A stretch of DNA of 64,000 bases from the human T2T-CHM13v2.0 reference genome, Homo sapiens (GCA_009914755.4 CP086569.2:48352001-48416000), one strand, 5' to 3'. Positions 1 to 62,823 are shown, counted from the stretch's first letter. Program-made: numbers and translations. Notes: generated from the letters alone by a model not told the origin.

Positions 1-53
1 GGAATAAAATAGAATGAAAGAGAATCAAATGGAATTGAATCGAATGGAATCGA

Positions 54-12038: not shown

Positions 12039-12415
12039 AATGGACTCGAACAGAGTGGAATGGAAAGTGTTGAGATAGAATGGAATGGACTCGTTTGGAA
12101 TGGTCTAGTAGGCAATGCAATCGACTGGCAGGGAATCAAAAGGAATGTAATCGAATGGATTGGACTGGAATGCAATGGACTCGAATAGATTGCAAACGGA
12201 ATGCAAAGGAATGGAATGGAATAGTATGGAATGGAATGGAAAGGAATGGAGTGGAATAGACTAGAGTGGAATGGAATGGACTGGAAAGAAATGGACTGGA
12301 ATGGAACTTTCTTGAATGGACAGGAATCAAACGGAATGGAATGCAATGCAATCAAATGGCATGGAATAAAATAGAATGAAAGAGAATCAAATGGAATTGA
12401 ATCGAATGGAATCGA

Positions 12416-15984: not shown

Positions 15985-18900
15985 ATGGATTGGAAAGGAA
16001 TAGAATGGAATGGAATGGAATTGACTCAAATGGAATGGACTAGAATGGAATGGATTCGAATGGAAGGCAAAGGAATGGAATCTATTGGAATGGACTGTAA
16101 TGGAATGGAATGGAAGGGATTGGAATGGACTCGAATGGAATGGACTGCAATAGAAAGGATTCGAATGGAATGAAAAAGAATTGAATGGAATAGAACAGAA
16201 TGGAATCAAATCGAATGAAATGGAATGGAATAGAAAGGAATGGAATGAAATGGAATGGAAAGGATTCGAATGGAATGCAATCGAATGGAATGGAATCGAA
16301 CGGAATGGAATAAAATGGAAGAAAACTGGCAAGAAATGGAATCGAAATGAATGGAGTGTTATGGAACGGACTCAAAAGGAATTGAATGTAATAGAATGGA
16401 GTGGAGTGGACTCGAATATAATGGACTGGAATGGAATGAAATCACATGGAATGGGAACGAATGGAATGGAATGGAAAGGAATGGAATCGAATGGAAAGGA
16501 ATCGAATGGAAGGGAATGTAATTGAATCAACAGGAATGGAAGGGAATAGAATAGACGGTAATGGAATGGACTCGAATTGAATGGACACGAATGCTCAAAT
16601 TGAATGGACTCGAATGGAATGGAAACGAAAGGAATGTCATCGAATGGAATTGAATCGATTGGAATGAAATCGCATAGAATGGAGTGGAATCAAATGGAAT
16701 TGAATCGAAAGGAAAGGAAGCGAATGGACTGAAATGAAATGGAATGGAATTGAATGGAAAGTAATGCAATGGAATAGAATGGAACGAAATTTCACGGAAT
16801 GGAATCAAACTGAATGGAATCAAATCAATGGAATCTAATCAAATGGAATGGAAAGGAATTGAATGGAGTAGATTGGATTGGATGGGATTGGAATGAAATG
16901 TACTGGAAAGGACTCGAATTTCATGAAACGGAATGGAATGAATTGGAACGGAATGGACTCGAATGGAATGGAATGTCATGGAATGGCATCAAATGGAATG
17001 GCATCAAATGGAATGGAATCGAATGCAATGGAATGCTATGGAATGGAATGGAATGCATTGGAATGGAATGTCCTCTAATGGAATGGATTCGAGTGGAATG
17101 GCATCGAATATAATGGAGTCGAATGAAATGGAATTGAAAAGAATGGGATCGAATACAATGGAATATACTGGAATGTAATGTAATGAACTCGAATGTAATT
17201 GACTGGAATGGAATGTACATGAATGGAATGTAATCGAATGGAAAGTAATCCAATGGAATAGAATCTAATGCAATAAAATCGACTCAAATAGAGTAGAATG
17301 TAATGGAATGGAGTGCAGTGCAATGGAATGGAATGGAATGGAATGCAATGGAATGGAATGGAATGGAATGGAATTTAATGGAATGGGATGGAATGGTATG
17401 GAATGGATAGTAATGGACTGGAGTGAAATGGACTGGAAAGGAATGGACTCAAATTGAAAGGGCTCGAAAGGAATGGAGTCAAATGGAATGGTCTGGAATG
17501 GAATGAACACGAATGTAATGCAATCCAATAGAATGGAATCGAATGGCATGGAATATAAAGAAATGGAATCGAAGAGAATGGAAACAAATGGAATGGAATT
17601 GAATGGAATGGAATTGAATGGAATGGGAACGAATGGAGTGAAATTGTATGCAGTAGAAGGGAATAGAATGGAATGCAAGCGAAAGGAAAGGAATGGATTG
17701 GAATGGAATGGAATTCATTGGAATGGAAGGGAATGTAGTGTAATGGACAGGTCTGGAATAAAGTGGAATGCTACGGTCTCGAATGGAATAAAAATGTATG
17801 GAATGGAATGCAATGAAACGGAATCGAATGTCATAGAATGTAATGGAATGCAAAAAAATGGAATCCAAAATCATTGACTGGAAAGGCTGGGTGTCGAAAG
17901 GAATTGACTCCAATGGAATGGAATCGAATGGAATGGAAGTGAATAGAATCGAACTAAATCGAATGGAATGGAATTGATAGGAACGGAATGGAAAGGAATG
18001 CAATGATTTGGCATGGAATGGAATCGAATGGCATCGAATGGAATGGAATGGAATGCAATGGAATGGAATGTATTAGAATGTAATGAACTTTAATGGAATG
18101 TACTCGAATGGATTCGACTGGAATGGAATGTTCTGGAAGTGAATGGACTCCAACGGAATGGATTCCAAAGGAATGGAATCGTACGGAATGGAATCTAATG
18201 GAATGGAATTAAATGGAAATGAATCAAATTGAATAGCACGGAATTGAATTGAATGGAATGGAATGCAATGGAATCTAATGAAACGGAAAGGAAAGGAATG
18301 GAATGGAATGGAATGGGCTGGAATGGAAAGGAATCGAAACGAATGGAATGGAATCGAACTGAAGAGACTGGAATGGAATGCACTGGAATGGAAGGGAGTG
18401 TAATGGAAGGTTGTCGAAAAAAATGGAATAGAATGGAATGGAATTGAATGGAACGGAATAGAGTCGAATGGAATTGAATGGAATGGAATGGACTAGAGTG
18501 AAATGGAATCGAACCACAAGGGATGGACAGGAATAGAATGGTCTCGAATTGAATGGAATCGTATGGAATGGCATCAAACGGAATGGAATGGACAGCCACG
18601 GAATGGAATGCACTCGAATGCAATGGAGTCGAAACTAATGGACTGGAATAGAATGGACTCGACTGGTACGGACTCCAATGGAATGGAATCGAATGGAAGG
18701 GAATCGAACGGAATGGACTCGAAGGGAAAAGACTGCAATGGAAAGGTCTCGAATGGAATGGAAATTAATGGAATGGAATGGAATCGAATGAAATGGAGTC
18801 AAAAGGAATGGAATCGAATGGCAAGAAATCGAATGTAATGGAATCGCAAGGAATTGATGTGAACGGAACGGAATGGAATGGAATCCAAAGGAATGGAATA

Positions 18901-19543
18901 GAATGGAATGGAATCGAATGGAAAGGACTCGAATGGAAATCACTCGAATAGAATGCAATTTAATAAAATAGGACCAAATGTAATGGAATGGAATGGAAAG
19001 GAATCGAAACGAAAGGAATGGAGACAGATGGAATGGAATGGAACAGAGAGCAATGGTATAGAATGGAATGGAATCATCTGGAATGGAATTGAATGGAATG
19101 GAATAATATGAAATGGAATGGAATGGAATGGAATGGAATGCCCTTGAATTAAATGGACTGGAATGGAATGGACTCGAACAGAGTGGAATGGAAAGTGTTG
19201 AGATAGAATGGAATGGACTCGTTTGGAATGGTCTAGTAGGCAATGCAATCGACTGGCAGGGAATCAAAAGGAATGTAATCGAATGGATTGGACTGGAATG
19301 CAATGGACTCGAATAGATTGCAAACGGAATGCAAAGGAATGGAATGGAATAGTATGGAATGGAATGGAAAGGAATGGAGTGGAATAGACTAGAGTGGAAT
19401 GGAATGGACTGGAAAGAAATGGACTGGAATGGATCTTTCTTGAATGGACAGGAATCAAACGGAATGGAATGCAATGCAATCAAATGGCATGGAATAAAAT
19501 AGAATGAAAGAGAATCAAATGGAATTGAATCGAATGGAATCGA
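15985..19543 (+). repeat. HSat3 HOR unit 5 (3559 bp), subfamily 'd'
   Basis: Anchor spacing. Shares private variants with unit 6: 'ggcatcgaatataatgg' (17099-17115), 'ttgaaaagaatggg' (17135-17148), 'ctcaaatagag', and 'gaatgtaattgaatc' (16514-16528). Confidence 0.75.
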
Positions 19544-22500
19544 ATGGATTGGAAAGGAATAGAATGGAATGGAATGGAATTGACTCAAATGGAATGGACT
19601 AGAATGGAATGGATTCGAATGGAAGGCAAAGGAATGGAATCTATTGGAATGGACTGTAATGGAATGGAATGGAAGGGATTGGAATGGACTCGAATGGAAT
19701 GGACTGCAATAGAAAGGATTCGAATGGAATGAAAAAGAATTGAATGGAATAGAACAGAATGGAATCAAATCGAATGAAATGGAATGGAATAGAAAGGAAT
19801 GGAATGAAATGGAATGGAAAGGATTCGAATGGAATGCAATCGAATGGAATGGAATCGAACGGAATGGAATAAAATGGAAGAAAACTGGCAAGAAATGGAA
19901 TCGAAATGAATGGAGTGTTATGGAACGGACTCAAAAGGAATTGAATGTAATAGAATGGAGTGGAGTGGACTCGAATATAATGGACTGGAATGGAATGAAA
20001 TCACATGGAATGGGAACGAATGGAATGGAATGGAAAGGAATGGAATCGAATGGAAAGGAATCGAATGGAAGGGAATGTAATTGAATCAACAGGAATGGAA
20101 GGGAATAGAATAGACGGTAATGGAATGGACTCGAATTGAATGGACACGAATGCTCAAATTGAATGGACTCGAATGGAATGGAAACGAAAGGAATGTCATC
20201 GAATGGAATTGAATCGATTGGAATGAAATCGCATAGAATGGAGTGGAATCAAATGGAATTGAATCGAAAGGAAAGGAAGCGAATGGACTGAAATGAAATG
20301 GAATGGAATTGAATGGAAAGTAATGCAATGGAATAGAATGGAACGAAATTTCACGGAATGGAATCAAACTGAATGGAATCAAATCAATGGAATCTAATCA
20401 AATGGAATGGAAAGGAATTGAATGGAGTAGATTGGATTGGATGGGATTGGAATGAAATGTACTGGAAAGGACTCGAATTTCATGAAACGGAATGGAATGA
20501 ATTGGAACGGAATGGACTCGAATGGAATGGAATGTCATGGAATGGCATCAAATGGAATGGCATCAAATGGAATGGAATCGAATGCAATGGAATGCTATGG
20601 AATGGAATGGAATGCATTGGAATGGAATGTCCTCTAATGGAATGGATTCGAGTGGAATGGCATCGAATATAATGGAGTCGAATGAAATGGAATTGAAAAG
20701 AATGGGATCGAATACAATGGAATATACTGGAATGTAATGTAATGAACTCGAATGTAATTGACTGGAATGGAATGTACATGAATGGAATGTAATCGAATGG
20801 AAAGTAATCCAATGGAATAGAATCTAATGCAATAAAATCGACTCAAATAGAGTAGAATGTAATGGAATGGAGTGCAGTGCAATGGAATGGAATGGAATGG
20901 AATGCAATGGAATGGAATGGAATGGAATGGAATGGAATTTAATGGAATGGGATGGAATGGTATGGAATGGATAGTAATGGACTGGAGTGAAATGGACTGG
21001 AAAGGAATGGACTCAAATTGAAAGGGCTCGAAAGGAATGGAGTCAAATGGAATGGTCTGGAATGGAATGAACACGAATGTAATGCAATCCAATAGAATGG
21101 AATCGAATGGCATGGAATATAAAGAAATGGAATCGAAGAGAATGGAAACAAATGGAATGGAATTGAATGGAATGGAATTGAATGGAATGGGAACGAATGG
21201 AGTGAAATTGTATGCAGTAGAAGGGAATAGAATGGAATGCAAGCGAAAGGAAAGGAATGGATTGGAATGGAATGGAATTCATTGGAATGGAAGGGAATGT
21301 AGTGTAATGGACAGGTCTGGAATAAAGTGGAATGCTACGGTCTCGAATGGAATAAAAATGTATGGAATGGAATGCAATGAAACGGAATCGAATGTCATAG
21401 AATGTAATGGAATGCAAAAAAATGGAATCCAAAATCATTGACTGGAAAGGCTGGGTGTCGAAAGGAATTGACTCCAATGGAATGGAATCGAATGGAATGG
21501 AAGTGAATAGAATCGAACTAAATCGAATGGAATGGAATTGATAGGAACGGAATGGAAAGGAATGCAATGATTTGGCATGGAATGGAATCGAATGGCATCG
21601 AATGGAATGGAATGGAATGCAATGGAATGGAATGTATTAGAATGTAATGAACTTTAATGGAATGTACTCGAATGGATTCGACTGGAATGGAATGTTCTGG
21701 AAGTGAATGGACTCCAACGGAATGGATTCCAAAGGAATGGAATCGTACGGAATGGAATCTAATGGAATGGAATTAAATGGAAATGAATCAAATTGAATAG
21801 CACGGAATAGAATTGAATGGAATGGAATGCAATGGAATCTAATGAAACGGAAAGGAAAGGAATGGAATGGAATGGAATGGGCTGGAATGGAAAGGAATCG
21901 AAACGAATGGAATGGAATCGAACTGAAGAGACTGGAATGGAATGCACTGGAATGGAAGGGAGTGTAATGGAAGGTTGTCGAAAAAAATGGAATCGAATGG
22001 AATGGAATTGAATGGAACGGAATAGAGTCGAATGGAATTGAATGGAATGGAATGGACTAGAGTGAAATGGAATCGAACCACAAGGGATGGACAGGAATAG
22101 AATGGTCTCGAATTGAATGGAATCGTATGGAATGGCATCAAACGGAATGGAATGGACAGCCACGGAATGGAATGCACTCGAATGCAATGGAGTCGAAACT
22201 AATGGACTGGAATAGAATGGACTCGACTGGTACGGACTGCAATGGAATGGAATCGAATGGAAGGGAATCGAACGGAATGGACTCGAAGGGAAAAGACTGC
22301 AATGGAAAGGTCTCCAATGGAATGGAAATTAATGGAATGGAATGGAATCGAATGAAATGGAGTCAAAAGGAATGGAATCGAATGGCAAGAAATCGAATGT
22401 AATGGAATCGCAAGGAATTGATGTGAACGGAACGGAATGGAATGGAATCCAAAGGAATGGAATAGAATGGAATGGAATCGAATGGAAAGGACTCGAATGG

Positions 22501-23106
22501 AAATCACTCGAATAGAATGCAATTTAATAAAATAGGATCAAATGTAATGGAATGGAATGGAAAGGAATCGAAACGAAAGGAATGGAGACAGATGGAATGG
22601 AATGGAACAGAGAGCAATGGTATAGAATGGAATGGAATCATCTGGAATGGAATTGAATGGAATGGAATAATATGAAATGGAATGGAATGGAATGGAATGG
22701 AATGCCTTGAATTAAATGGACTGGAATGGAATGGACTCGAACAGAGTGGAATGGAAAGTGTTGAGATAGAATGGAATGGACTCCTTTGGAATGGTCTAGT
22801 ATGCAATGCAATCGACTGGTAGGGAATCAAAAGGAATGTAATCGAATGGATTGGACTGGAATGCAATGGACTCGAATAGATTGGAAACGGAATGCAAAGG
22901 AATGGAATGGAATAGTATGGAATGGAATGGAAAGGAATGGAGTGGAATAGACTAGAGTGGAATGGAATGGACTGGAAAGCAATAGACTGGAATGGAACTT
23001 TCTTGAATGGACTGGAATCAAACGGAATGGAATGCAATGCAATCAAATGGCATGGAATAAAATAGAATGAAAGAGAATCAAATGGAATTGAATCGAATGG
23101 AATCGA
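19544..23106 (+). repeat. HSat3 HOR unit 6 (3563 bp), subfamily 'd', near-identical to unit 5
   Basis: Same private variants as unit 5 (20653-20669, 20689-20702, 20073-20087), implying a recent single-unit tandem duplication. Confidence 0.75.
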
Positions 23107-26100
23107 ATGGATTGGAAAGGAATAGAATGGAATGGAATGGAATTGACTCAAATGGAATGGACTAGAATGGAATGGATTCGAATGGAAGGCAAAGGAATGG
23201 AATCTATTGGAATGGACTGTAATGGAATGGAATGGAAGGGATTGGAATGGACTCGAATGGAATGGACTGCAATAGAAAGGATTCGAATGGAATGAAAAAG
23301 AATTGAATGGAATAGAACAGAATGGAATCAAATCGAATGAAATGGAATGGAATAGAAAGGAATGGAATGAAATGGAATGGAAAGGATTCGAATGGAATGC
23401 AATCGAATGGAATGGAATCGAACGGAATGGAATAAAATGGAAGAAAACAGGCAAGAAATGGAATCGAAATGAATGGAGTGTTATGGAACGGACTCAAAAG
23501 GAATTGAATGTAATAGAATGGAGTGGAGTGGACTCGAATATAATGGACTGGAATGGAATGAAATCACATGGAATGGGAACGAATGGAATTGAATGGAAAG
23601 GAATGGAATCGAATGGAAAGGAATCGAATGGAAGGGAATGAAATTGAATCAACAGGAATGGAAGGGAATAGAATAGACGGTAATGGAATGGACTCGAATA
23701 GAATGGACACGAATGCTCAAATTGAATGGACTCGAATGGAATGGAAACGAAAGGAATGTCATCGAATGGAATTGAATCGATTGGAATGAAATCGCATAGA
23801 ATGGAGTGGAATCAAATGGAATTGAATCGAAAGGAAAGGAAGCGAATGGACTGAAATGAAATGGAATGGAATTGAATGGAAAGTAATGCAATGGAATAGA
23901 ATGGAACGAAATTTCACGGAATGGAATCAAACTGAATGGAATCAAATCAATGGAATCTAATCAAATGGAATGGAAGGGAATTGAATGGAGTAGATTGGAT
24001 TGGATGGGATTGGAATGAAATGTACTGGAAAGGACTCGAATTTCATGAAACGGAATGGAATGAATTGGAACGGAATGGACTCGAATGGAATGGAATGTCA
24101 TGGAATGGCATCAAATGGAATGGCATCAAATGGAATGGAATCGAATGCAATGGAATGTTATGGAATGGAATGGAATGCATTGGAATGGAATGTCCTCTAA
24201 TGGAATGGATTCGAGTGGAATGGAATCGAATATAATGGAGTCGAATGAAATGGAATTGAAAGGAATGGGATCGAATAGAATGGAATATACTGGAATGTAA
24301 TGTAATGAACTCGAATGTAATTGACTGGAATGGAATGTACATGAATGGAATGTAATCGAATGGAAAGTAATCCAATGGAATAGAATCTAATGCAATAAAA
24401 TCGACTCAGATAGAGTAGAATGTAATGGAATGGAGTGCAGTGCAATGCAATGGAATGGAATGGAATGCAATGGAATGGAATGGAATGGAATGGAATGGAA
24501 TGGAATGGAATGGAATGGAATGGGATGGAATGGTATGGAATGGATAGTAATGGACTGGAGTGAAATGGACTGGAAAGGAATGGACTCAAATTGAAAGGGC
24601 TCGAAAGGAATGGATTCAAATGGAATGGTCTGGAATGGAATGAACACGAAAGTAATGCAATCCAATAGAATGGAATCGAATGGCATGGAATATAAAGAAA
24701 TGGAATCGAAGAGAATGGAAACAAATGGAATGGAATTGAATGGAATGGAATTGAATGGAATGGGAACGAATGGAGTGAAATTGTATGCAGTAGAAGGGAA
24801 TAGAATGGAATGCAAGCGAAAGGAAAGGAATGGATTGGAATGGAATGGAATTCATTGGAATGGAAGGGAATGTAGTGTAATGGACAGGCCTGGAATAAAG
24901 TGGAATGCTACGGTCTCGAATGGAATAAAAATGTATGGAATGGAATGCAATGAAACGGAATCGAATGTCATAGAATGTAATGGAATGCAACAAAATGGAA
25001 TCCAAAATCATTGACTGGAAAGGCTGGGTGTCGAAAGGAATTGACTCCAATGGAATGGAATCGAATGGAATGGAAGTGAATAGAATCGAACTAAATCGAA
25101 TGGAATGGAATTGATAGGAACGGAATGGAAAGGAATGCAATGATTTGGCATGGAATGGAATCGAATGACATCGAATGGAATGGAATGGAATGCAATGGAA
25201 TGGAATGTATTAGAATGTAATGAACTTTAATGGAATGTACTCGAATGGATTCGACTGGAATGGAATGTTCTGGAAGTGAATGGACTCCAATGGAATGGAT
25301 TCCAAAGGAATGGAATCGTACGGAATGGAATCTAATGGAATGGAATTAAATGGAAATGAATCAAATTGAATAGCACGGAATTGAATTGAATGGAATGGAA
25401 TGCAATGGAATCTAATGAAACGGAAAGGAAAGGAATGGAATGGAATGGAATGGGCTGGAATGGAAAGGAATCGAAACGAATGGAATGGAATCGAACTGAA
25501 GAGACTGGAATGGAATGCACTGGAATGGAAGGGAGAGTAATGGAAGGTTCTCGAAAAAAATGGAATGGAATGGAATGGAATTGAATGGAACGGAATAGAG
25601 TCGAATGGAATTGAATGGAATGGAATGGACTAGAGTGAAATGGAATCGAACCACAAGGAATGGACAGGAATAGAATGGTCTCGAATTGAATGGAATCGTA
25701 TGGAATGGCATCAAACGGAATGGAATGGACAGCCACTGAATGGAATGCACTCGAATGCAATGGAGTCGAAACTAATGGACTGGAATAGAATGGACTCGAC
25801 TGGTACGGACTCCAATGGAATGGAATCGAATGGAAGGGAATCGAACGGAATGGACTCGAAGGGAAAAGACTGCAATGGAAAGGTCTCCAATGGAATGGAA
25901 ATTAATGGAATGGAATGGAATCGAATGAAATGGAGTCAAAAGGAATGGAATCGAATGGCAAGAAATCGAATGTAATGGAATCGCAAGGAATTGATGTGAA
26001 CGGAACGGAATGGAATGGAATCCAAAGGAATGGAATAGAATGGAATGGAATCGAATGGAAAGGACTCGAATGGAAATCACTCGAATAGAATGCAATTTAA

Positions 26101-26680
26101 TAAAATAGGATCAAATGTAATGGAATGGAATGGAAAGGAATCGAAACGAAAGGAATGGAGACAGATGGAATGGAATGGAACAGAGAGCAATGGTATAGAA
26201 TGGAATGGAATCATCTGGAATGGAATTGAATGGAATGGAATAATATGAAATGGAATGGAATGGAATGGAATGGAATGCCCTTGAATTAAATGGACTGGAA
26301 TGGAATGGACTCGAACAGAGTGGAATGGAAAGTGTTGAGATAGAATGGAATGGACTCCTTTGGAATGGTGTAGTATGCAATGCAATCGACTGGCAGGGAA
26401 TCAAAAGGAATGTAATGGAATGGACTGGACTGGAATGCAATGGACTCGAATAGATTGGAAACGGAATGCAAAGGAATGGAATGGAATAGTATGGAATGGA
26501 ATGGAAAGGAATGGAGTGGAATAGACTAGAGTGGAATGGAATGGACTGGAAAGCAATGGACTGGAATGGATCTTTCTTGAATGGACTGGAATCAAACGGA
26601 ATGGAATGCAATGCAATCAAATGGCATGGAATAAAATAGAATGAAAGAGAATCAAATGGAATTGAATCGAATGGAATCGA
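23107..26680 (+). repeat. HSat3 HOR unit 7 (3574 bp)
   Basis: Anchor spacing. Shares the 'gaatagaatggaatatac' (R) and 'gaatgttatgg' variants with unit 3 (8115-8330 versus 24085-24300). Confidence 0.75.
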
Positions 26681-40881: not shown

Positions 40882-43800
40882 ATGGATTGGAAAGGAATAG
40901 AATGGAATGGAATGGAATTGACTCAAATGGAATGGACTAGAATGGAATGGATTCGAATGGAAGGCAAAGGAATGGAATCTATTGGAATGGACTGGAATGG
41001 AATGGAAGGGATTGGAATGGACTCGAATGGAATGGACTGCAATAGAAAGGATTCGAATGGAATGAAAAAGAATTGAATGGAATAGAACAGAATGGAATCA
41101 AATCGAATGAAATGGAATGGAATAGAAAGGAATGGAATGAAATGGAATGGAAAGGATTCGAATGGAATGCAATCGAATGGAATGGAATCGAACGGAATGG
41201 AATAAAATGGAAGAAAACTGGCAAGAAATGGAATCGAAATGAATGGAGTGTTATGGAACGGACTCAAAAGGAATTGAATGTAATAGAATGGAGTGGAGTG
41301 GACTCGAATATAATGGACTGGAATGGAATGAAATCACATGGAATGGGAACGAATGGAATGGAATGGAAAGGAATGGAATCGAATGGAAAGGAATCGAATG
41401 GAAGGGAATGAAATTGAATCAACAGGAATGGAAGGGAATAGAATAGACGGTAATGGAATGGACTCGAATTGAATGGACACGAATGCTCAAATTGAATGGA
41501 CAAGAATGGAATGGAAACGAAAGGAATGTCATCGAATGGAATTGAATCGATTGGAATGAAATCGCATAGAATGGAGTGGAATCAAATGGAATTGAATCGA
41601 AAGGAAAGGAAGCGAATGGACTGAAATGAAATGGAATGGAATTGAATGGAAAGTAATGCAATGGAATAGAATGGAACGAAATTTCACGGAATGGAATCAA
41701 ACTGAATGGAATCAAATCAATGGAATCTAATCAAATGGAATGGAAAGGAATTGAATGGAGTAGATTGGATTGGATGGGATTGGAATGAAATGTACTGGAA
41801 AGGACTCGAATTTCATGAAACGGAATGGAATGAATTGGAACGGAATGGACTCGAATGGAATGGAATGGCATCAAATGGAATGGCATCAAATGGAATGGAA
41901 TCGAATGCAATGGAATGCTATGGAATGGAATGGAATGCATTGGAATGGAATGTCCTCTAATGGAATGGATTCGAGTGGAATGGAATCGAATATAATGGAG
42001 TCGAATGAAATGGAATTGAAAAGAATGGGATCGAATACAATGGAATATACTGGAATGTAATGTAATGAACTCGAATGTAATTGACTGGAATGGAATGTAC
42101 ATGAATGGAATGTAATCGAATGGAAAGTAATCCAATGGAATAGAAACTAATGCAATAAAATCGACTCAAATAGAGTAGAATGTAATGGAATGGAGTGCAG
42201 TGCAATGGAATGGAATGGAATTGAATGCAATGGAATGGAATGGAATGTTATGGAATGGAATGGAATGGATTGGAATGGGATGGAATGGTATGGAATGGAT
42301 AGTAATGGACTGGAGTGAAATGGACTGGAAAGGAATGGACTCAAATTGAAAGGGCTCGAAAGGAATGGAGTCAAATGGAATAGTCTGGAATGGAATGAAC
42401 ACGAATGTAATGCAATCCAATAGAATGTAATCGAATGGCATGGAATATAAAGAAATGGATTCGAAGAGAATGGAAACAAATGGAATGGAATTGAATGGAA
42501 TGGAATTGAATGGAATGGGAACGAATGGAGTGAAATTGTATGCAGTAGAAGAGAATAGAATGGAATGCAAGCGAAAGGAAAGGAATGGATTGGAATGGAA
42601 TGGAATTCATTGGAATGGAAGGGAATGTAGTGTAATGGACAGGCCTGGAATAAAGTGGAATGCTACGGTCTCGAATGGAATAAAAATGTATGGAATGGAA
42701 TGCAATGAAACGGAATCGAATGTCATAGAATGTAATGGAATGCAACAAAATGGAATCCAAAATCATTGACTGGAAAGGCTGGGTGTCGAAAGGAATTGAC
42801 TCCAATGGAATGGAATCGAATGGAATGGAAGTGAATAGAATCGAACTAAATCGAATGGAATGGAATTGATAGGAACGGAATGGAGAGGAATGCAATGATT
42901 TGGCATGGAATGCAATCGAATGGCATCGAATGGAATGGAATGGAATGCAATGGAATGGAATGTATTGGAATGTAATGAACTTTAATGGAATGTACTCGAA
43001 TGGATTCGACTGGAATGGAATGTTCTGGAAGTGAATGGACTCCAATGGAATGGATTCCAAAGGAATGGAATCGTACGGAATGGAATCTAATGGAATGGAA
43101 TTAAATGGAAATGAATCAAATTGAATAGCACGGAATTGAATTGAATGGAATCGAATGCAATGGAATCTAATGAAACGGAAAGGAAAGGAATGGAATGGAA
43201 TGGAATGGGCTGGAATGGAAAGGAATCGAAACGAATGGAATGGAATCGAACTGAAGAGACTGGAATGGAATGCACTGGAATGGAAGGGAGTGTAATGGAA
43301 GGTTCTCGAAAAAAATGGAATCGAATGGAATGGAATTGAATGGAACGGAATAGAGTCGAATGGAATTGAATGGAATGGAATGGACTAGAGTGAAATGGAA
43401 TCGAACCACAAGGAATGGACAGGAATAGAATGGTCTCGAATTGAATGGAATCGTATGGAATGGCATCAAACGGAATGGAATGGACAGCCACGGAATGGAA
43501 TGCACTCGAATGCAATGGAGTCGAAACTAATGGACTGGAATAGAATGGACTCGACTGGTACGGACTCCAATGGAATGGAATCGAATGGAAGGGAATCGAA
43601 CGGAATGGACTCGAAGGGAAAAGACTGCAATGGAAAGGTCTCGAATGGAATGGAAATTAATGGAATGGAATGGAATCGAATGAAATGGAGTCAAAAGGAA
43701 TGGAATCGAATGGCAAGAAATCGAATGTAATGGAATCGCAAGGAATTGATGTGAACGGAACGGAATGGAATGGAATCCAAAGGAATGGAATAGAATGGAA

Positions 43801-44430
43801 TGGAATCGAATGGAAAGGACTCGAATGGAAATCACTCGAATAGAATGCAATTTAATAAAATAGGATCAAATGTAATGGAATGGAATGGAAAGGAATCGAA
43901 ACGAAAGGAATGGAGACAGATGGAATGGAATGGAACAGAGAGCAATGGTATAGAATGGAATGGAATCATCTGGAATGGAATTGAATGGAATGGAATAATA
44001 TGAAATGGAATGGAATGGAATGGAATGCCCTTGAATTAAATGGACTGGAATGGAATGGACTCGAACAGAGTGGAATGGAAAGTGTTGAGATAGAATGGAA
44101 TGGACTCGTTTGGAATGGTCTAGTAGGCAATGCAATCGACTGGCAGGGAATCAAAAGGAATGTAATGGAATGGATTGGACTGGAATGCAATGGACTCGAA
44201 TAGATTGGAAACGGAATGCAAAGGAATGGAATGGAATAGTATGGAATGGAATGGAAAGGAATGCAGTGGAATAGACTAGAGTGGAATGGAATGGACTGGA
44301 AAGCAATGGACTGGAATGGAACTTTATTGAATGGACTGGAATCAAACGGAATGGAATGCAATGCAATCAAATGGCATGGAATAAAATAGAATGAAAGAGA
44401 ATCAAATGGAATTGAATCAAATGGAATCGA
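40882..44430 (+). repeat. HSat3 HOR unit 12 (3549 bp), subfamily 'd'
   Basis: 'ttgaaaagaatggg' (42015-42028), 'agaaactaatgcaat' (42140-42154), 'ctcaaatagag'. 5-bp deletion at 40994/40995 and 10-bp deletion at 41867/41868. Confidence 0.75.
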
Positions 44431-47400
44431 ATGGATTGGAAAGGAATAGAATGGAATGGAATGGAATTGACTCAAATGGAATGGACTAGAATGGAATGGA
44501 TTCGAATGGAAGGCAAAGGAATGGAATCTATTGGAATGGACTGTAATGGAATGGAATGGAAGGGATTGGAATGGACTCGAATGGAATGGACTGCAATAGA
44601 AAGGATTCGAATGGAATGAAAAAGAATTGAATGGAATAGAACAGAATGGAATCAAATCGAATGAAATGGAATGGAATAGAAAGGAATGGAATGAAATGGA
44701 ATGGAAAGGATTCGAATGGAATGCAATCGAATGGAATGGAATCGAACGGAATGGAATAAAATGGAAGAAAACTGGCAAGAAATGGAATCGAAATGAATGG
44801 AGTGTTATGGAACGGACTCAAAAGGAATTGAATGTAATAGAATGGAGTGGAGTGGACTCGAATATAATGGACTGGAATGGAATGAAATCACATGGAATGG
44901 GAACGAATGGAATGGAATGGAAAGGAATGGAATCGAATGGAAAGGAATCGAATGGAAGGGAATGAAATTGAATCAACAGGAATGGAAGAGAATAGAATAG
45001 ACGGTAATGGAATGGACTCGAATAGAATGGACACGAATGCTCAAATTGAATGGACTCGAATGGAATGGAAACGAAAGGAATGTCATCGAATGGAATTGAA
45101 TCGATTGGAATGAAATCGCATAGAATGGAGTGGAATCAAATGGAATTGAATCGAAAGGAAAGGAAGCGAATGGACTGAAATGAAATGGAATGGAATTGAA
45201 TGGAAAGTAATGCAATGGAATAGAATGGAACGAAATTTCACGGAATGGAATCAAACTGAATGGAATCAAACCAATGGAATCAAATCAAATGGAATGGAAA
45301 GGAATTGAATGGAGTAGATTGGATTGGATGGGATTGGAATGAAATGTACTGGAAAGGACTCGAATTTCATGAAACGGAATGGAATGAATTGGAACGGAAC
45401 GGACTCGAATGGAATGGAATGTCATGGAATGGCATCAAATGGAATGGCATCAAATGGAATGGAATCGAATGCAATGGAATGCTATGGAATGGAATGGAAT
45501 GCATTTTAATGGAATGTCCTCTAATGGAATGGATTCGAGTGGAATGGAATCGAATATAATGGAGTCGAATGAAATGGAATTGAAAGGAATGGGATCGAAT
45601 ACAATGGAATATACTGGAATGTAATGTAATGAACTCGAATGTAATTGACTGGAATGGAATGTACATGAATGGAATGTAATCGAATGGAAAGTAATCCAAT
45701 GGAATAGAATCTAATGCAATAAAATCGACTCAGATAGAGTAGAATGTAATGGAATGGAGTGCAGTGCAATGGAATGGAATGGAATGGAATGCAATGGAAT
45801 GGAATGGAATGGAATGGAATGGAATGGAATGGAATGGTGTGGAATGGATAGTAATGGACTGGAGTGAAATGGACTGGAAAGGAATGGACTCAAATTGAAT
45901 GGGCTCGAAAGGAATGGAGTCAAATGGAATGGTCTGGAATGGAATGAACACGAATGTAATGCAATCCAATAGAATGGAATCGAATGGCATGGAATATAAA
46001 GAAATGGAATCGAAGAGAATGGAAACAAATGGAATGGAATTGAGTGGAATGGAATTGAATGGAATGGGAAGGAATGGAGTGAAATTGTATGCAGTAGAAG
46101 AGAATAGAATGGAATGCAAGCGAAAGGAAAGGAATGGATTGGAATGGAATGGAATTCATTGGTATGGAAGGGAATGTAGTGTAATGGACAGGCCTGGAAT
46201 AAAGTGGAATGCTACGGTCTCGAATGGAATAAAAATGTATGGAATGGAATGCAATGAAACGGAATCGAATGTCATAGAATGTAATGGAATGCAACAAAAT
46301 GGAATCCAAAATCATTGACTGGAAAGGCTGGGTGTCGAAAGGAATTGACTCCAATGGAATGGAATCGAATGGAATGGAAGTGAATAGAATCGAACTAAAT
46401 CGAATGGAATGGAATTGATAGGAACGGAATGGAAAGGAATGCAATGATTTGGCATGGAATGGAATCGAATGGCATCGAATGGAATGGAATGGAATGCAAT
46501 GGAATGGAATGTATTAGAATGTAATGAACTTTAATGGAATGTACTCGAATGGATTCGACTGGAATGGAATGTTCTGGAAGTGAATGGACTCCAATGGAAT
46601 GGATTCAAAAGGAATGGAATCGTACGGAATGGAATCTAATGGAATGGAATTAAATGGAAATGAATCAAATTGAATAGCACGGAATTGAATTGAATGGAAT
46701 GGAATGCAATGGAATCTAATGAAACGGAAAGGAAAGGAATGGAATGGAATGGAATGGGCTGGAATGGAAAGGAATCGAAACGAATGGAATGGAATCGAAC
46801 TGAAGAGACTGGAATGGAATGCACTGGAATGGAAGGGAGTGTAATGGAAGGTTCTCGAAAAAAATGGAATGGAATGGAATGGAATTGAATGGAACGGAAT
46901 AGAGTCGAATGGAATTGAATGGAATGGAATGGACTAGAGTGAAATGGAATCGAACCACAAGGAATGGACAGGAATAGAATGGTCTCGAATTGAATGGAAT
47001 CGTATGGAATGGCATCAAACTGAATGGAATTGACAGCCACGGAATAGAATGCACTCGAATGCAATGGAGTCGAAACTAATGGACTGGAATAGAATGGACT
47101 CGACTGGTACGGACTCCAATGGAATGGAATCGAATGGAAGGGAATCGAACGGAATGAACTCGAAGGGACAAGACTGCAATGGAAAGGTCTCGAATGGAAT
47201 GGAAATTAATGGAATGGAATGGAATCGAATGAAATGGAGTCAAAAGGAATGGAATCGAATGGCAAGAAATCGAATGTAATGGAATCGCAAGGAATTGATG
47301 TGAACGGAACGGAATGGAATGGAATCCAAAGGAATGGAATAGAATGGAATGGAATCGAATGGAAAGGACTCGAATGGAAATCACTCGAATAGAATGCAAT

Positions 47401-47984
47401 TTAATAAAATAGAATCAAATGTAATGGAATGGAATGGAAAGGAATCGAAACGAAAGGAATGGAGACAGATGGAATGGAATGGAACAGAGAGCAATGGTAT
47501 AGAATGGAATGGAATCATCTGGAATGGAATTGAATGGAATGGAATAATATGAAATGGAATGGAATGGAATGGAATGGAATGCCCTTGAATTAAATGGACT
47601 GGAATGGAATGGACTCGAACAGAGTGGAATGGAAAGTGTTGAGATAGAATGGAATGGACTCCTTTGGAATGGTTTAGTATGCAATGCAATCGACTGGTAG
47701 GGAATCAAAAGGAATGTAATCGAATGGATTGGACTGGAATGCAATGGACTCGAATAGATTGGAAACGGAATGCAAAGGAATGGAATGGAATAGTATGGAA
47801 TGGAATGGAAAGGAATGGAGTGGAATAGACTAGAGTGGAATGGAATGGACTGGAAAGCAATGGACTGGAATGGAACTTTCTTGAATGGACTGGAATCAAA
47901 CGGAATGGAATGCAATGCAATCAAATGGCATGGAATAAAATAGAATGAAAGAGAATCAAATGGAATTGAATCGAATGGAATCGA
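44431..47984 (+). repeat. HSat3 HOR unit 13 (3554 bp), subfamily 'b'
   Basis: Shares 'cattttaatggaatgtcc' (45492-45509), 'caaaccaatgg' (45269-45279), 'ggaacggaacggactcg' (45390-45406) with unit 9. Confidence 0.75.
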
Positions 47985-50900
47985 ATGGATTGGAAAGGAA
48001 TAGAATGGAATGGAATGGAATTGACTCAAATGGAATGGACTAGAATGGAATGGATTCGAATGGAAGGCAAAGGAATGGAATCTATTGGAATGGACTGTAA
48101 TGGAATGGAATGGAAGGGATTGGAATGGACTCGAATGGAATGGACTGCAATAGAAAGGATTCGAATGGAATGAAAAAGAATTGAATGGAATAGAACAGAA
48201 TGGAATCAAATCGAATGAAATGGAATGGAATAGAAAGAATGGAATGAAATGGAATGGAAAGGATTCGAATGGAATGCAATCGAATGGAATGGAATCGAAC
48301 GGAATGGAATAAAATGGAAGAAAACTGGCAAGAAATGGAATCGAAATGAATGGAGTGTTATGGAACGGACTCAAAAGGAATTGAATGTAATAGAATGGAG
48401 TGGAGTGGACTCGAATATAATGGACTGGAATGGAATGAAATCACATGGAATGGGAACGAATGGAATGGAATGGAAAGGAATGGAATCGAATGGAAAGGAA
48501 TCGAATGGAAGGGAATGAAATTGAATCAACAGGAATGGAAGGGAATAGAATAGACGGTAATGGAATGGACTCGAATAGAATGGACACGAATGCTCAAATT
48601 GAATGGACTCGAATGGAATGGAAACGAAAGGAATGTCATCGAATGGAATTGAATCGATTGGAATGAAATCGCATAGAATGGAGTGGAATCAAATGGAATT
48701 GAATCGAAAGGAAAGGAAGCGAATGGACTGAAATGAAATGGAATGGAATTGAATGGAAAGTAATGCAATGGAATAGAATGGAACGAAATTTCACGGAATG
48801 GAATCAAACTGAATGGAATCAAATCAATGGAATCTAATCAAATGGAATGGAAAGGAATTGAATGGAGTAGATTGGATTGGATGGGATTGGAATGAAATGT
48901 ACTGGAAAGGACTCGAATTTCATGAAACGGAATGGAATGAATTGGAACGGAATGGACTCGAATGGAATGGAATGTCATGGAATGGCATCAAATGGAATGG
49001 CATCAAATGGAATGGAATCGAATGCAATGGAATGCTATGGAATGGAATGGAATGCATTGGAATGGAATGTCCTCTAATGGAATGGATTCGAGTGGAATGG
49101 AATCGAATATAATGGAGTCGAATGAAATGGAATTGAAAAGAATGGGATCGAATACAATGGAATATACTGGAATGTAATGTAATGAACTCGAATGTAATTG
49201 ACTGGAATGGAATGTACATGAATGGAATGTAATCGAATGGAAAGTAATCCAATGGAATAGAAACTAATGCAATAAAATCGACTCAAATAGAGTAGAATGT
49301 AATGGAATGGAGTGCAGTGCAATGGAATGGAATGGAATGGAATGCAATGGAATGGAATGGATTGGAATGGAATGGGATGGAATGGTGTGGAATGGATAGT
49401 AATGGACTGGTGTGAAATGGACTGGAAAGGAATGGACTCAAATTGAAAGGGCTCTAAAGGAATGGAGTCAAATGGAATGGTCTGGAATGGAATGAACACG
49501 AATGTAATGCAATCCAATAGAATGGAATCGAATGGCATGGAATATAAAGAAATGGAATCGAAGAGAATGGAAACAAATGGAATGGAATTGAATGGAATGG
49601 AATTGAATGGAATGGGAAGGAATGGAGTGAAATTGTATGCAGTATTAGAGAATAGAATGGAATGCAAGTGAAAGGAAAGGAATGGATTGGAATGGAATGG
49701 AATTCATTGGAATGGAAGGGAATGTAGTGTAATGGACAGGCCTGGAATAAAGTGGAATGCTACGGTCTCGAATGGAATAAAAATGTATGGAATGGAATGC
49801 AATGAAACGGAATCGAATGTCATAGAATGTAATGGAATGCAACAAAATGGAATCCAAAATCATTGACTGGAAAGGCTGGGTGTCGAAAGGAATTGACTCC
49901 AATGGAATGGAATCGAATGGAATGGAAGTGAATAGAATCGAACTAAATCGAATGGAATGGAATTGATAGGAACGGAATGGAAAGGAATGCAATGATTTGG
50001 CATGGAATGGAATCGAATGGCATCGAATGGAATGGAATGGAATGCAATGGAATGGAATGTATTAGAATGTAATGAACTTTAATGGAATGTACTCGAATGG
50101 ATTCGACTGGAATGGAATGTTCTGGAAGTGAATGGACTCCAATGGAATGGATTCAAAAGGAATGGAATCGTACGGAATGGAATCTAATGGAAGGGAATTA
50201 AATGGAAATGAATCAAATTGAATAGCACGGAATTGAATTGAATGGAATGGAATGCAATGGAATCTAATGAAACGGAAAGGAAAGGAATGGAATGGAATGG
50301 AATGGGCTGGAATGGAAAGGAATCGAAACGAATGGAATGGAATCGAACTGAAGAGACTGGAATGGAATGCACTGGAATGGAAGGGAGTGTAATGAAGGTT
50401 CTCGAAAAAAATGGAATCGAATGGAATGGAATTGAATGGAACGGAATAGAGTCGAATGGAATTGAATGGAATGGAATGGACTAGAGTGAAATGGAATCGA
50501 ACCACAAGGAATGGACAGGAATAGAATGGTCTCGAATTGAATGGAATCGTATGGAATGGCATCAAACGGAATGGAATGGACAGCCACGGAATGGAATGCA
50601 CTCGAATGCAATGGAGTCGAAACTAATGGACTGGAATAGAATGGACTCGACTGGTACGGACTCCAATGGAATGGAATCGAATGGAAGGGAATCGAACGGA
50701 ATGGACTCGAAGGGAAAAGACTGCAATGGAAAGGTCTCGAATGGAATGGAAATTAATGGAATGGAATGGAATCGAATGAAATGGAGTCAAAAGGAATGGA
50801 ATCGAATGGCAAGAAATCGAATGTAATGGAATCGCAAGGAATTGATGTGAACGGAACGGAATGGAATGGAATCCAAAGGAATGGAATAGAATGGAATGGA

Positions 50901-51532
50901 ATCGAATGGAAAGGACTCGAATGGAAATCACTCGAATAGAATGCAATTTAATAAAATAGGATCAAATGGAATGGAATGGAATGGAAAGGAATCGAAACGA
51001 AAGGAATGGAGACAGATGGAATGGAATGGAACAGAGAGCAATGGTATAGAATGGAATGGAATCATCTGGAATGGAATTGAATGGAATGGAATAATATGAA
51101 ATGGAATGGAATGGAATGGAATGGAATGCCCTTGAATTAAATGGACTGGAATGGAATGGACTCGAACAGAGTGGAATGGAAAGTGTTGAGATAGAATGGA
51201 ATGGACTCCTTTGGAATGGTGTAGTATGCAATGCAATCGACTGGCAGGGAATCAAAAGGAATGTAATGGAATGGATTGGACTGGAATGCAATGGACTCGA
51301 ATAGATTGGAAACGGAATGCAAAGGAATGGAATGGAATAGTATGGAATGGAATGGAAAGGAATGGAGTGGAATAGACTAGAGTGGAATGGAATGGACTGG
51401 AAAGCAATGGACTGGAATGGAACTTTCTTGAATGGACTGGAATCAAACGGAATGGAATGCAATGCAATCAAATGGCATGGAATAAAATAGAATGAAAGAG
51501 AATCAAATGGAATTGAATCGAATGGAATCGAA
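47985..51532 (+). repeat. HSat3 HOR unit 14 (3548 bp), subfamily 'd'
   Basis: Shares the subfamily-'d' variants with unit 12 (49131-49144, 49259-49273). Confidence 0.75.

Positions 51533-57116: not shown

Positions 57117-57414
<298 letters not shown>

Positions 57415-57984: not shown

Positions 57985-62823
<4,839 letters not shown>

What the first reader, a model, noticed from the sequence alone, without database searches (positions are those of the whole stretch)
15985..51532. HOR units fall into at least four subfamilies that recur at 1-, 2-, 3- and 4-unit spacings, implying block-wise amplification above the 3.56-kb HOR
Private indels and substitutions are shared between non-adjacent units. 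Units 8 and 11 share a 15-bp deletion plus 'gtcatagaatg' (3 units apart). Units 9 and 13 share 'cattttaatgg', 'caaacc' and 'ggaacggaacgg' (4 units apart). Units 5/6 and 12/14 share 'aaaagaatggg' and 'ctcaaatagag', and units 12 and 14 additionally share 'agaaactaatgc'. Units 3 and 7 share 'gaatagaatggaatatac' and 'gaatgttatgg'. This mosaic is not explained by simple one-unit tandem duplication. It suggests multi-unit segmental duplications or conversion tracts, i.e. a local super-HOR layer.
Basis: seen in the sequence. Interest (0 to 1): 0.5.

Follow-up and report, generated by a model that had tools for sequence, protein, structure and literature searches.

The report
Mosaic variant units in Y-chromosome DYZ1 satellite
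The shared "private" variants between non-adjacent 3.56-kb repeat units are real, but they mark short exchanged patches inside a human Y-chromosome satellite (DYZ1) that is evolving by ordinary unequal exchange and gene conversion, not a new repeat layer above the known unit.

Summary
Positions 1-56366 are a (GGAAT)n-derived satellite with a 3.56-kb unit. It abuts a 2.4-kb AT-rich, Alu-bearing repeat. This is the human Yq12 DYZ1/DYZ2 junction.

Sharing far exceeds chance: 60 shared substitutions against 5.2 expected.

Every quoted marker lies in alignment columns 836-1303, about 13% of the unit. The four groups are recovered only in that part. Elsewhere the groupings change. For example, U08 pairs with U11, then with U05/U06, then with U03b/U04/U05.

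- One third of informative site pairs fail the four-gamete test, and neighbouring sites are more compatible than distant ones (0 of 5000 permutations).
- No two copies agree at all informative sites for more than 2.47 kb.
- There is no identity minimum at lags 2-8.
- No three-unit block stands out.

External DYZ1 copies, found as human contamination in public assemblies, carry the U08/U11 haplotype and several other markers, so these are not private. Variants absent from external copies cluster within about 3 units. Variants seen externally show no clustering.

Verdict: this is ordinary concerted evolution, meaning short-range unequal exchange and gene conversion acting on old unit variants. 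There is no super-HOR. Interest is low.

The parts
1..56366 (+). DYZ1-type (HSat3, GGAAT-derived) satellite array. It holds 15 units of 3524-3574 bp, one 5279-bp unit (U03) and a final unit truncated at column 1281.
   Evidence: TRF pentamer-based consensus. K-mer lags 3539-3574. BLAST of one unit against the window, EcoRI once per unit, HaeIII spacing 3539-3573. GC 38-40%.
15985..51532 (+). The span of the finding, which is units U05-U14.
   Evidence: Unit boundaries.
27532..27661 (+). Group 'a' tract in U08: 852C, the 15-bp deletion at columns 862-876, and 996A. Its partner in U11 is 38179-38308. The maximum extent is columns 588-1075 (27268-27740 in U08, 37915-38387 in U11).
   Evidence: The same haplotype occurs in external contigs L016, L021, L045 and L050.
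30819..33449 (+). Group 'b': U09 columns 595-3255, the near-whole-unit relative of U13 (45025-47660, lag 4). Shared markers are 841C, 970C, 1076T, 1077T, 1423A, 1434G, 1495T, 1639G, 2466G and 2764C. The pair also shares 3293T, just beyond this stretch. The group-defining markers 841C, 1077T and 2764C are absent from the external copies, and 970C, 1076T and 1495T occur in one external copy each. 1423A, which U02 and U04 also carry, is in 8 of 39.
   Evidence: (96% bootstrap).
46071..46295 (+). A patch inside U13 (columns 1666-1890) that carries the alleles of neighbouring U14 (1666G, 1890C) in an otherwise U09-like unit. It is flanked on both sides by U09-type markers, which is a conversion-like patch. 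The maximum extent is 46045-46870.
7988..8492 (+). Group 'c' markers in U03a: 852T, 1052T, 1172G, 1295C, 1356T. They are shared in part with U07 (23958-24278) and U10 (34945-35129).
   Evidence: (69% in the head region).
16836..17287 (+). Group 'd' markers (852T, 1156A, 1303A) in U05. They also occur in U06 (20395-20846), U12 (41728-42169) and U14 (48835-49286). U12 and U14 add 1280A.
   Evidence: (73% in the head region). 1156A and 1303A are each seen in 5 external copies.
17660..18522 (+). Mid-unit group 'f' (1696G, 1788T, 2190C, 2202C, 2449G, 2558G) in U05. It also occurs in U06 (21224-22086) and U08 (28351-29213). 1788T destroys the unit's HaeIII site.
   Evidence: (93%). Apart from 1696G, which is in 5 of 29 external copies, these markers are absent from the 23-27 external copies that cover them.
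10891..11116 (+). Mid-unit group 'g' (2050C, 2105C, 2275T) in U03b. It also occurs in U04 (14460-14685) and U11 (39352-39577).
   Evidence: Absent from 24-26 external copies.
11846..12322 (+). Tail group 'h' (3010C, 3275G, 3357C, 3453A, 3486A) in U03b. It also occurs in U04 (15415-15891), U05 (18974-19450) and U08 (29655-30131).
   Evidence: (96%). Absent from about 30 external copies, except 3010C, which is in one.
15987..18239 (+). U05 columns 3-2275 are identical to U06 (19546-21803) at 156 consecutive polymorphic sites. All 14 differences between the two units lie downstream. The switch point is between columns 2558 and 2787 (18522-18751 in U05, 22086-22315 in U06).
   Evidence: (global p<0.0005).
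10303..10316 (+). An out-of-register junction inside U03. Column about 3193 is joined to column about 1469 through a short shared stretch. This gives a 1725-bp partial duplication and a 5279-bp unit.
   Evidence: Base-by-base comparison with U02 and U04. K-mer lags 1720, 1725 and 5279.
56367..64000 (.). DYZ2-type (HSat1B) repeat, about 3.15 units of 2.42 kb. Each unit has an AT-rich part, an antisense Alu fragment (first copy 57126-57410) and a less AT-rich part.
   Evidence: GC 20-31%. Lags 2418 and 2421. HaeIII fragments of 2144 and 2147 bp. Sequence. Sub-threshold, Alu-derived mir-1268 hits once per unit.

Best explanation
The window is the edge of a human Yq12 DYZ1 (HSat3A6) array where it meets a DYZ2 (HSat1B) array. 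The pattern of shared variants is the footprint of ordinary concerted evolution inside a tandem array. It has two layers.

1. **Old, chromosome-wide unit variants.** Examples are the 852C + 15-bp-deletion haplotype, 779T+783T, 1156A, 1303A, 1172G and 852T. They occur in DYZ1 copies elsewhere and show no positional clustering in this window.
2. **Local variants.** These arose at this array edge and were copied to units a few positions away, on average about 3 units, in tracts of about 0.15-2.6 kb. The copying was by in-register unequal sister-chromatid or intrachromatid exchange with breakpoints inside units, and by gene conversion.

Because the tracts are shorter than a unit, each unit is a mosaic whose nearest relative changes along its length. 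The most recent events are simple one-unit (lag 1) duplications or conversions: U03b/U04/U05 and U05/U06. There is no regular repeat layer above 3.56 kb.

- **Shown:** the variants, their linkage in tracts, the incompatibilities, the absence of multi-unit tracts and of any lag periodicity, and the external occurrence of some haplotypes.
- **Inferred:** the molecular mechanism (exchange against conversion), and the direction and order of the events.
For: **Identity of the locus**

- The consensus is pentamer-based.
- The unit is 3.56 kb, and HaeIII spacings include 3569 bp.
- GC is 38-40% in the satellite and 20-31% in the adjacent repeat.
- The adjacent repeat has a 2.42-kb unit with an Alu fragment.
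- These features match the published descriptions of DYZ1 and DYZ2 (10.1101/2022.12.01.518658; 10.1101/2022.12.01.518724).
- Contigs 99.6-100% identical to the window's consensus occur as contamination in public assemblies, including records titled 'human gut metagenome'.

**Identity by descent**

- There are 60 shared substitutions against 5.2 expected.
- Multi-marker carrier sets recur at neighbouring sites.

**Mosaicism**

- 655 of 1953 informative site pairs fail the four-gamete test, and Hudson-Kaplan Rm is at least 16.
- Incompatibility among neighbouring sites is 0.193 against 0.336 after permutation, with 0 of 5000 permutations as low.
- Region-specific neighbour-joining trees disagree, each with high bootstrap.
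- U05 and U06 are identical at 156 consecutive polymorphic sites, then differ at 14.
- U13 carries a U14-type patch inside a U09-type background.

**No multi-unit layer**

-.

**Two layers of variants**

- For variants not seen in external copies (n=35), carriers lie 3.28 units apart against 5.81 after permutation, with 0 of 3000 permutations as low.
- For variants seen externally (n=19), the figures are 5.56 against 5.83, p=0.36.

**Published mechanism**

- Yq12 rearrangement patterns are consistent with unequal exchange, and sister-chromatid exchanges are seen there.
- Peripheral units of Yq12 arrays are more divergent than central ones.
- 6 of 35 de novo Yq12 single-nucleotide events in father-son pairs fit intra-array gene conversion (PMC13252187).
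Against: - Only 16 units are visible, so the power to see a long or irregular period is limited.
- In the head region the unit types read c-a-b then c-a-d-b (U07-U13). The paired-similarity test there is nominally significant (p=0.02). An old 3-unit duplication later overwritten by other events cannot be excluded.
- Static sequence cannot separate gene conversion from repeated unequal crossovers.
- The external copies are mostly short-read contigs of unknown individuals. They may be consensus-like or chimeric, so the haplotype frequencies taken from them are rough.
- Ancestral states were taken as the majority state. At column 3257 the window's minority allele is the external majority (22 of 31).
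- The Y-chromosomal origin is inferred from the match to published descriptions. The window was not placed on an assembly.
Confidence: 0.8

Rival explanations
1. Blocks of several units were amplified together (for example a 3-unit block of types c-a-b). This created a local super-HOR layer of 7-14 kb above the 3.56-kb unit.
For: - Head-region types of U07-U13 read c-a-b-c-a-d-b.
- The paired-similarity test in columns 1-1468 gives 10 against 5.4, p=0.02.
- Lag 3 in columns 1469-3193 is marginally low (p=0.057).
Against: - No tract at a lag above 1 exceeds 1.9-2.6 kb, whereas an unequal exchange at lag k should leave k units of contiguous similarity.
- There is no identity minimum at lags 2-8.
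- The paired-similarity test is absent or reversed in the other 60% of the unit.
- U07-U09 against U10-U12 ranks 10th of 45 three-unit diagonals.
- Between the c tract (U07/U10) and the a tract (U08/U11) there are at least 8 informative mismatches.
- The a haplotype is a widespread DYZ1 variant, not a local product.
Confidence: 0.1
2. Homoplasy. The shared states are independent recurrent mutations at hypermutable pentamer or CpG positions, and replication slippage produced the same indels.
For: - Column 852 is tri-allelic.
- Columns 1363-1392 are a multi-allelic pentamer copy-number hotspot.
- All indels but three are multiples of 5 bp.
- 34% of head-region singletons are also seen in some external copy.
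Against: - There are 60 shared substitutions against 5.2 expected.
- Only 7 of 60 are at CpG, and 22 of 60 are transitions.
- Three- and four-member carrier sets recur at three or more linked sites each.
- Compatibility is spatially clustered, with 0 of 5000 permutations as extreme.
- L050 matches U08 exactly across the 165 columns compared, including all three a-type markers.
Confidence: 0.03
3. Assembly artefact. The mosaic units are chimeras made when a long-read assembler mis-joined near-identical repeat copies.
For: Satellite arrays are the hardest regions to assemble. Nothing in the window itself can exclude this.
Against: - Units differ by about 1%, roughly 40 events per 3.6 kb. That should be enough for accurate long reads spanning several units to be placed uniquely (inference).
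- The switch points are many (Rm at least 16 within one unit length) and are shared among several units.
- Partial haplotypes of the same kind occur in independent external contigs.
Confidence: 0.05

Closest known systems
Human DYZ1 (HSat3A6) / DYZ2 (HSat1B) arrays of Yq12
   Same: - A pentamer-derived 3.56-kb unit, with HaeIII spacing that includes 3569 bp.
- GC of 38-40%.
- An adjacent 2.4-kb AT-rich repeat with an old Alu fragment.
- Units about 98-99% alike, with more divergence at array edges.

Sources: and the papers read.
   Different: Nothing structural. The window is simply one array edge. One 5279-bp unit with an out-of-register junction is a local irregularity.
HOR-haplotypes (HOR-haps) of alpha-satellite arrays (Altemose et al., 10.1101/2021.07.12.452052)
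   Same: Units of one array share sets of variant positions that define variant classes, and these classes reflect the history of expansion.
   Different: - HOR-haps occupy contiguous layers or zones of an array.
- Here the classes hold only for segments of the unit.
- They are interleaved unit by unit, and a unit belongs to different classes along its length.
- The same authors call multi-kilobase HSat2/3 units 'nested tandem repeats' rather than HORs.
superHORs (CentromereArchitect, PMC8336445)
   Same: Both concern a recurring ordered string of unit types above the basic higher-order unit.
   Different: - Their types are structural HOR variants with different monomer content, not substitution haplotypes.
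- Here no ordered string of whole-unit types recurs.
- There is no lag periodicity.
Concerted evolution of tandem arrays by unequal sister-chromatid exchange and gene conversion (Smith's crossover-fixation model, from my own knowledge; Yq12 evidence in 10.1101/2022.12.01.518724 and PMC13252187)
   Same: - Short-range spread of new variants.
- Hybrid units at exchange points.
- Recent lag-1 duplicates.
- Patches flanked on both sides by another haplotype.

Sources.
   Different: None. The window is a worked example at single-unit resolution.

Membership tests
Human DYZ1 (HSat3A6) satellite | Derived from the pentamer GGAAT/CATTC | tested here: met
   TRF consensus AATGGAATGG and AATGGAATCGAATGG over 28-56366.
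Human DYZ1 (HSat3A6) satellite | A unit of about 3.5-3.6 kb. The commonest virtual HaeIII fragment is 3,569 bp (10.1101/2022.12.01.518658). | tested here: met
   K-mer lags 3539-3574. HaeIII spacings of 3549, 3559, 3569, 3539, 3554, 3548 and 3573 bp. Paper text.
Human DYZ1 (HSat3A6) satellite | GC of about 38%, alternating with DYZ2 arrays (about 2.4 kb; AT-rich part, Alu fragment and HSATI part; about 24% GC) | tested here: met
   GC 0.38-0.40 against 0.20-0.31. Period 2418/2421. Antisense Alu fragment at 57126-57410. Paper text.
Human DYZ1 (HSat3A6) satellite | Location on the human Y long arm (Yq12) | not testable with these tools
   No human genome is searchable here. Indirect support only: copies 99.6-100% identical to the window consensus occur as contaminants in 57 public contigs, some titled 'human gut metagenome'.
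Super-HOR (a regular repeat layer above the unit) | Higher identity at one fixed lag k>1 than at other lags | tested here: not met
   Lag profiles in three regions show only lag 1 low (p=0.008, columns 1469-3193). Lags 2-8 are not distinguishable from permuted order.
Super-HOR (a regular repeat layer above the unit) | Contiguous similarity tracts of at least k units at lag k, as expected from block duplication | tested here: not met
   The longest tract free of informative mismatches is 2474 columns at lag 1, and 1919 columns at lag 3. The longest exact repeat is 1775 bp. Three-unit diagonals are unremarkable.
Super-HOR (a regular repeat layer above the unit) | A recurring ordered string of unit types | tested here: inconclusive
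   With head-region types only, 'c-a' occurs twice (U07-U08, U10-U11), followed by 'b' after 0 or 1 unit. The paired-similarity test gives p=0.02 in the head and is negative elsewhere. With whole-unit types no string recurs. Only 16 units are visible.
HOR-haplotypes (variant classes of units within one array) | Whole units cluster into classes by shared variants | tested here: not met
The whole-unit neighbour-joining tree supports only U09+U13 (96%), U05+U06 (82%) and U05+U06+U08 (72%).
HOR-haplotypes (variant classes of units within one array) | Classes occupy contiguous zones or layers of the array | tested here: not met
   The classes are interleaved unit by unit. However, carriers of local variants lie closer together than chance, 3.28 against 5.81 units.
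Intra-array recombination (unequal exchange or gene conversion) footprint | Phylogenetic incompatibility between sites, lower between neighbouring sites than between distant ones | tested here: met
   655 of 1953 pairs are incompatible. The neighbour value is 0.193 against 0.336 permuted, with 0 of 5000 as low. Rm is at least 16.
Intra-array recombination (unequal exchange or gene conversion) footprint | Direct observation of an exchange or conversion event (donor and acceptor, before and after) | not testable with these tools
   This needs pedigree or population assemblies. Published father-son data report conversion-like events in Yq12 (PMC13252187).

The most novel reading that the evidence does not exclude
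The head-region order c-a-b / c-a-(d)-b (U07-U13) may be the eroded trace of a real block duplication of about 10.7 kb (3 units). In addition, the a-type unit (852C + 15-bp deletion) is present in 2 of 16 units here and in about 4 of 44 external copies. If it is spaced quasi-regularly through Yq12, DYZ1 would have a weak, chromosome-wide super-repeat that has not been described.
Probability: 0.08. Interest if true: 0.35.

Novelty: already known. Interest (0 to 1): 0.15.

Why it matters
It matters little as a discovery. The locus is the well-known human Yq12 DYZ1/DYZ2 heterochromatin. The pattern is what unequal exchange plus gene conversion are expected to leave, and both are already reported for this region.

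The modest value is as a single-unit-resolution example:
- Exchange tracts here are shorter than a unit, about 0.15-2.6 kb.
- New variants spread over about 3 units.
- Some 'unit subfamily' markers are chromosome-wide polymorphisms.

These numbers could help calibrate models of satellite homogenisation. They are also a caution for unit-level 'subfamily' calls made from a short segment of a repeat.

Tried and rejected
- **First split of unit 3.** I placed the junction at 10584. This produced 74 false 'singletons' in U03a. Base-by-base comparison moved the junction to 10303-10316, and I rebuilt the alignment.
- **Harsher homoplasy null.** I confined all mutations to the 210 observed variable columns. 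It gave 65 shared events against 60 observed. I set it aside as uninformative, because it forces sharing by construction. The tests of spatial linkage answer the same worry properly.
- **GENECONV-like longest-run test using all polymorphic sites.** Only U05/U06 was globally significant.
- **Search of the 57 external loci for the U03 junction and the DYZ1/DYZ2 junction.** There were no matches. Few of those loci cover these positions, so this says little.
- **Rfam scan of the DYZ2 part.** It gave only sub-threshold, Alu-derived mir-1268 hits.
- **GC-biased spread of shared variants.** There is a trend only. AT-to-GC against GC-to-AT changes are 19:18 among shared variants and 34:67 among singletons, Fisher p=0.075.
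- **Looking for the a-b-c-a-d-b-d order elsewhere in the array.** This was not possible. No human assembly is searchable with these tools, and only 2-3 consecutive units were available from external long contigs (L018, L030, L048).
Full report
**What the window is**

- Positions 1-56366 are a pentamer-based satellite. The TRF consensus is AATGGAATGG or AATGGAATCGAATGG, GC is 38-40%, and there is strong G-over-C skew.
- 24-mers recur mainly at 3539-3574 bp. There is one EcoRI site per unit, and HaeIII sites are spaced 3539-3573 bp apart.
- From 56367 the sequence changes to 20-31% GC with a 2418/2421-bp period. HaeIII fragments there are 2144 and 2147 bp, and each unit holds an antisense Alu fragment.
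- This matches the published descriptions (10.1101/2022.12.01.518658 and 10.1101/2022.12.01.518724).
  - DYZ1 (HSat3A6) has a unit of about 3.5-3.6 kb, its commonest HaeIII fragment is 3,569 bp, and its GC is 38%.
  - DYZ2 (HSat1B) has a unit of about 2.4 kb made of an AT-rich part plus an old Alu fragment, with 24% GC.
- A 26-mer that is invariant in the window found 57 external contigs. Eleven are in bacterial genome assemblies and 46 in metagenomes, and some are titled 'human gut metagenome'. Several are 99.6-100% identical to the window's majority consensus.
- I therefore treat the window as the edge of a human Yq12 DYZ1 array at a DYZ2 boundary. The chromosomal placement itself could not be tested.

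**Units**

- The finding's span, 15985-51532, is exactly U05-U14.
- 'Unit 3' is 5279 bp. It joins column about 3193 to column about 1469 at 10303-10316. I split it into U03a and U03b.
- The MAFFT alignment has 3579 columns. It holds 235 variant events, of which 68 are shared by two or more units. Of the 19 indels, 16 are multiples of 5 bp.
- About ten of U11's 'singletons' (columns 3-44) are one register shift caused by a 15-bp indel at the U10/U11 boundary.

**Checking the observation**

- U08 and U11 share 852C, an identical 15-bp deletion (columns 862-876) and 996A.
- U09 and U13 share 841C, 970C, 1076T/1077T and more.
- U05, U06, U12 and U14 share 1156A and 1303A. U12 and U14 add 1280A.
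- U03a and U07 share 1052T and 1172G.
- Two markers are less private than stated: 1172G is also in U10, and 970C is also in U15.
- Sharing is well above chance. There are 60 shared substitutions against 5.2 +/- 2.2 expected if each unit's changes are placed on random columns. Only 7 of the 60 are at CpG.
- Carrier sets of three and four units recur at three linked sites each.

**The groups are not subfamilies of units**

- Neighbour-joining with bootstrap recovers these groups in columns 1-1468:
  - U05/U06 (100%)
  - U09/U13 (97%)
  - U05/06/12/14 (73%)
  - U03a/07/10 (69%)
  - U04/15 (67%)
  - U08/11 (62%)
- Columns 1469-2800 instead give U05/06/08 (93%) and U03b/04(/11).
- Columns 2801-3579 give U03b/04/05/08 (96%).
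- On whole units only U09+U13 (96%), U05+U06 (82%) and U05+U06+U08 (72%) survive.
- 655 of 1953 informative site pairs fail the four-gamete test, and Hudson-Kaplan Rm is at least 16. Incompatibility among the five nearest sites is 0.193 against 0.336 after permuting site order, with 0 of 5000 permutations as low.
- Worked examples:
  - U05 and U06 are identical over columns 1-2280 apart from one 5-bp copy-number change. They then differ at 14 sites.
  - U13 is U09-like, with a U14-type patch at columns 1666-1890.
  - The U08/U11 tract is at most 488 bp, and overall this pair is one of the most different in the array, with 56 differences.

**Is there a layer above the unit?**

An unequal exchange at lag k duplicates k contiguous units, so a block model predicts long tracts at that lag. 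The data do not show this.

- The longest stretch over which any two copies agree at all informative sites, following the array across unit boundaries, is 2474 columns at lag 1 (U03b/U04 into U04/U05).
- The best-supported tract at a higher lag is U05/U08, 1919 columns at lag 3.
- The longest exact repeat is 1775 bp.
- Mean differences against lag show no minimum at lags 2-8. Only lag 1 in columns 1469-3193 is low (p=0.008), and lag 3 there is marginal (p=0.057).
- A test for similarity of both (i,j) and (i+1,j+1) is nominally positive in the head region only (10 against 5.4, p=0.02). It is absent or reversed elsewhere.
- The head types read: -, b', c, e, d, d, c, a, b, c, a, d, b, d, e, -. 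The c-a-b / c-a-d-b stretch is the only hint of a block.
- U07-U09 against U10-U12 ranks 10th of 45 three-unit diagonals, with 60 informative mismatches against a median of 68.

**Are the markers private?**

I scored 77 in-register external copies at the window's variant sites.

- The a-type haplotype (852C plus the same 15-bp deletion) is in L016, L021, L045 and L050. L050 also carries 996A and matches U08 exactly across the 165 columns compared.
- 779T+783T is in L035.
- Several other markers recur externally: 852T in 20 of 52 copies, 1172G in 7 of 50, 1156A in 5 of 52, 1303A in 5 of 47, and 1052T in 4 of 53.
- The b-type markers of U09/U13 are absent or seen once.
- Of the 34 mid- and tail-region shared substitutions, 24 are absent from the external copies, including nearly all the markers that define groups f, g and h.
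- For variants not seen externally (n=35), carriers lie 3.28 units apart on average, against 5.81 after permuting unit order (0 of 3000 as low). For variants seen externally (n=19) the figures are 5.56 against 5.83, p=0.36.
- So old, widely dispersed unit variants are overlaid by local variants that have spread only a few units.

**Explanation**

- The pattern is what intra-array recombination leaves. In-register unequal sister-chromatid exchange with breakpoints inside units makes hybrid units. Gene conversion copies short patches.
- Both processes are reported for Yq12.
  - Rearrangement patterns are consistent with unequal exchange, and sister-chromatid exchanges have been seen.
  - Units at array edges are more divergent than central ones.
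  - 6 of 35 de novo single-nucleotide events in father-son pairs fit intra-array conversion (PMC13252187).
- The split between conversion and repeated crossover cannot be decided from one static sequence. Patches flanked on both sides, such as the one in U13, favour conversion for at least some events.

**Comparison with what is known**

- The nearest concept is the HOR-haplotype of alpha-satellite arrays. Those form contiguous layers and are defined on whole units. Here the classes are segmental and interleaved.
- 'superHOR' refers to recurring strings of structural HOR variants, and the criteria I could test were not met.
- The authors of the human satellite maps call multi-kilobase HSat2/3 units 'nested tandem repeats' rather than HORs.

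**Verdict**

The 'block-wise amplification / super-HOR' half does not.
- The locus and the process are already known, so interest is low.

Noticed in passing
window 7137-12415 (junction 10303-10316): Unit 3 is 5279 bp. Column about 3193 is joined to column about 1469 through a short shared stretch, which gives a 1725-bp partial duplication. The two copies of the duplicated segment are of different types: U03a is like U05/U06, and U03b is identical to U04 for 1775 bp. This looks like an out-of-register exchange between different units, not an in-place duplication. It was not found in the 57 external loci.
   Followed up: partly
window 56366/56367 and 56367-64000: The DYZ1-to-DYZ2 boundary cuts a DYZ1 unit at column 1281 with no intervening sequence. 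About 3.15 DYZ2 units of 2.42 kb follow. Each has an antisense Alu fragment (first copy 57126-57410) that gives sub-threshold mir-1268 Rfam hits. TRF also reports 230-bp internal repeats at 60488-60921 and 62913-63343.
   Followed up: partly
window about 17750, 21314 and 28441 (column 1788 in U05, U06, U08): The shared C>T at column 1788 destroys the single HaeIII site of these three units. HaeIII spacings there become 10691 and 7093 bp instead of about 3.56 kb. Virtual HaeIII digestion, as used in published DYZ1 analyses, would merge these units.
   Followed up: yes
L001-L011 (genome contigs), for example BMRF01000076.1 Actinomadura cremea JCM 3308, NZ_SATR01000280.1 Vibrio ouci, NZ_BAFU01000147.1 Nocardia brevicatena, and several Streptomyces: Eleven contigs in species-representative bacterial genome assemblies are human DYZ1 satellite, up to 99.6-100% identical to the window consensus. 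This is human male DNA contamination in deposited prokaryotic assemblies.
   Followed up: partly
window 37328-37372 (U11 columns 3-44) and the U10/U11 boundary 37328-37342: A cluster of 11 apparent substitutions at the start of U11 is a register shift caused by a 15-bp indel at the unit boundary. The same states occur in 1-6 external copies each, so this boundary variant is widespread in DYZ1.
   Followed up: partly
alignment columns 1363-1392 of every unit (for example window 1381-1440 in U01): An (AATGG)n run inside the unit is a multi-allelic pentamer copy-number hotspot, with at least five different shared 5-bp indel patterns. I left it out of the linkage tests. Overall, 16 of 19 indel events are multiples of 5 bp.
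   Followed up: partly
whole array 1-56366: Shared variants are relatively richer in AT-to-GC changes (19 AT-to-GC against 18 GC-to-AT) than singletons (34 against 67). The odds ratio is 2.1 and Fisher p=0.075. This is a non-significant hint of GC-biased spread, as expected for biased gene conversion.
   Followed up: partly
U01 (54-3577) and U11 (37328-40881): These two units carry the most private changes: 24 in U01 and about 18 real ones in U11, against 1-16 in the others. U01 also has private 15-bp, 10-bp and 5-bp deletions. Why these two units have escaped homogenisation more than their neighbours is not explained.
   Followed up: no
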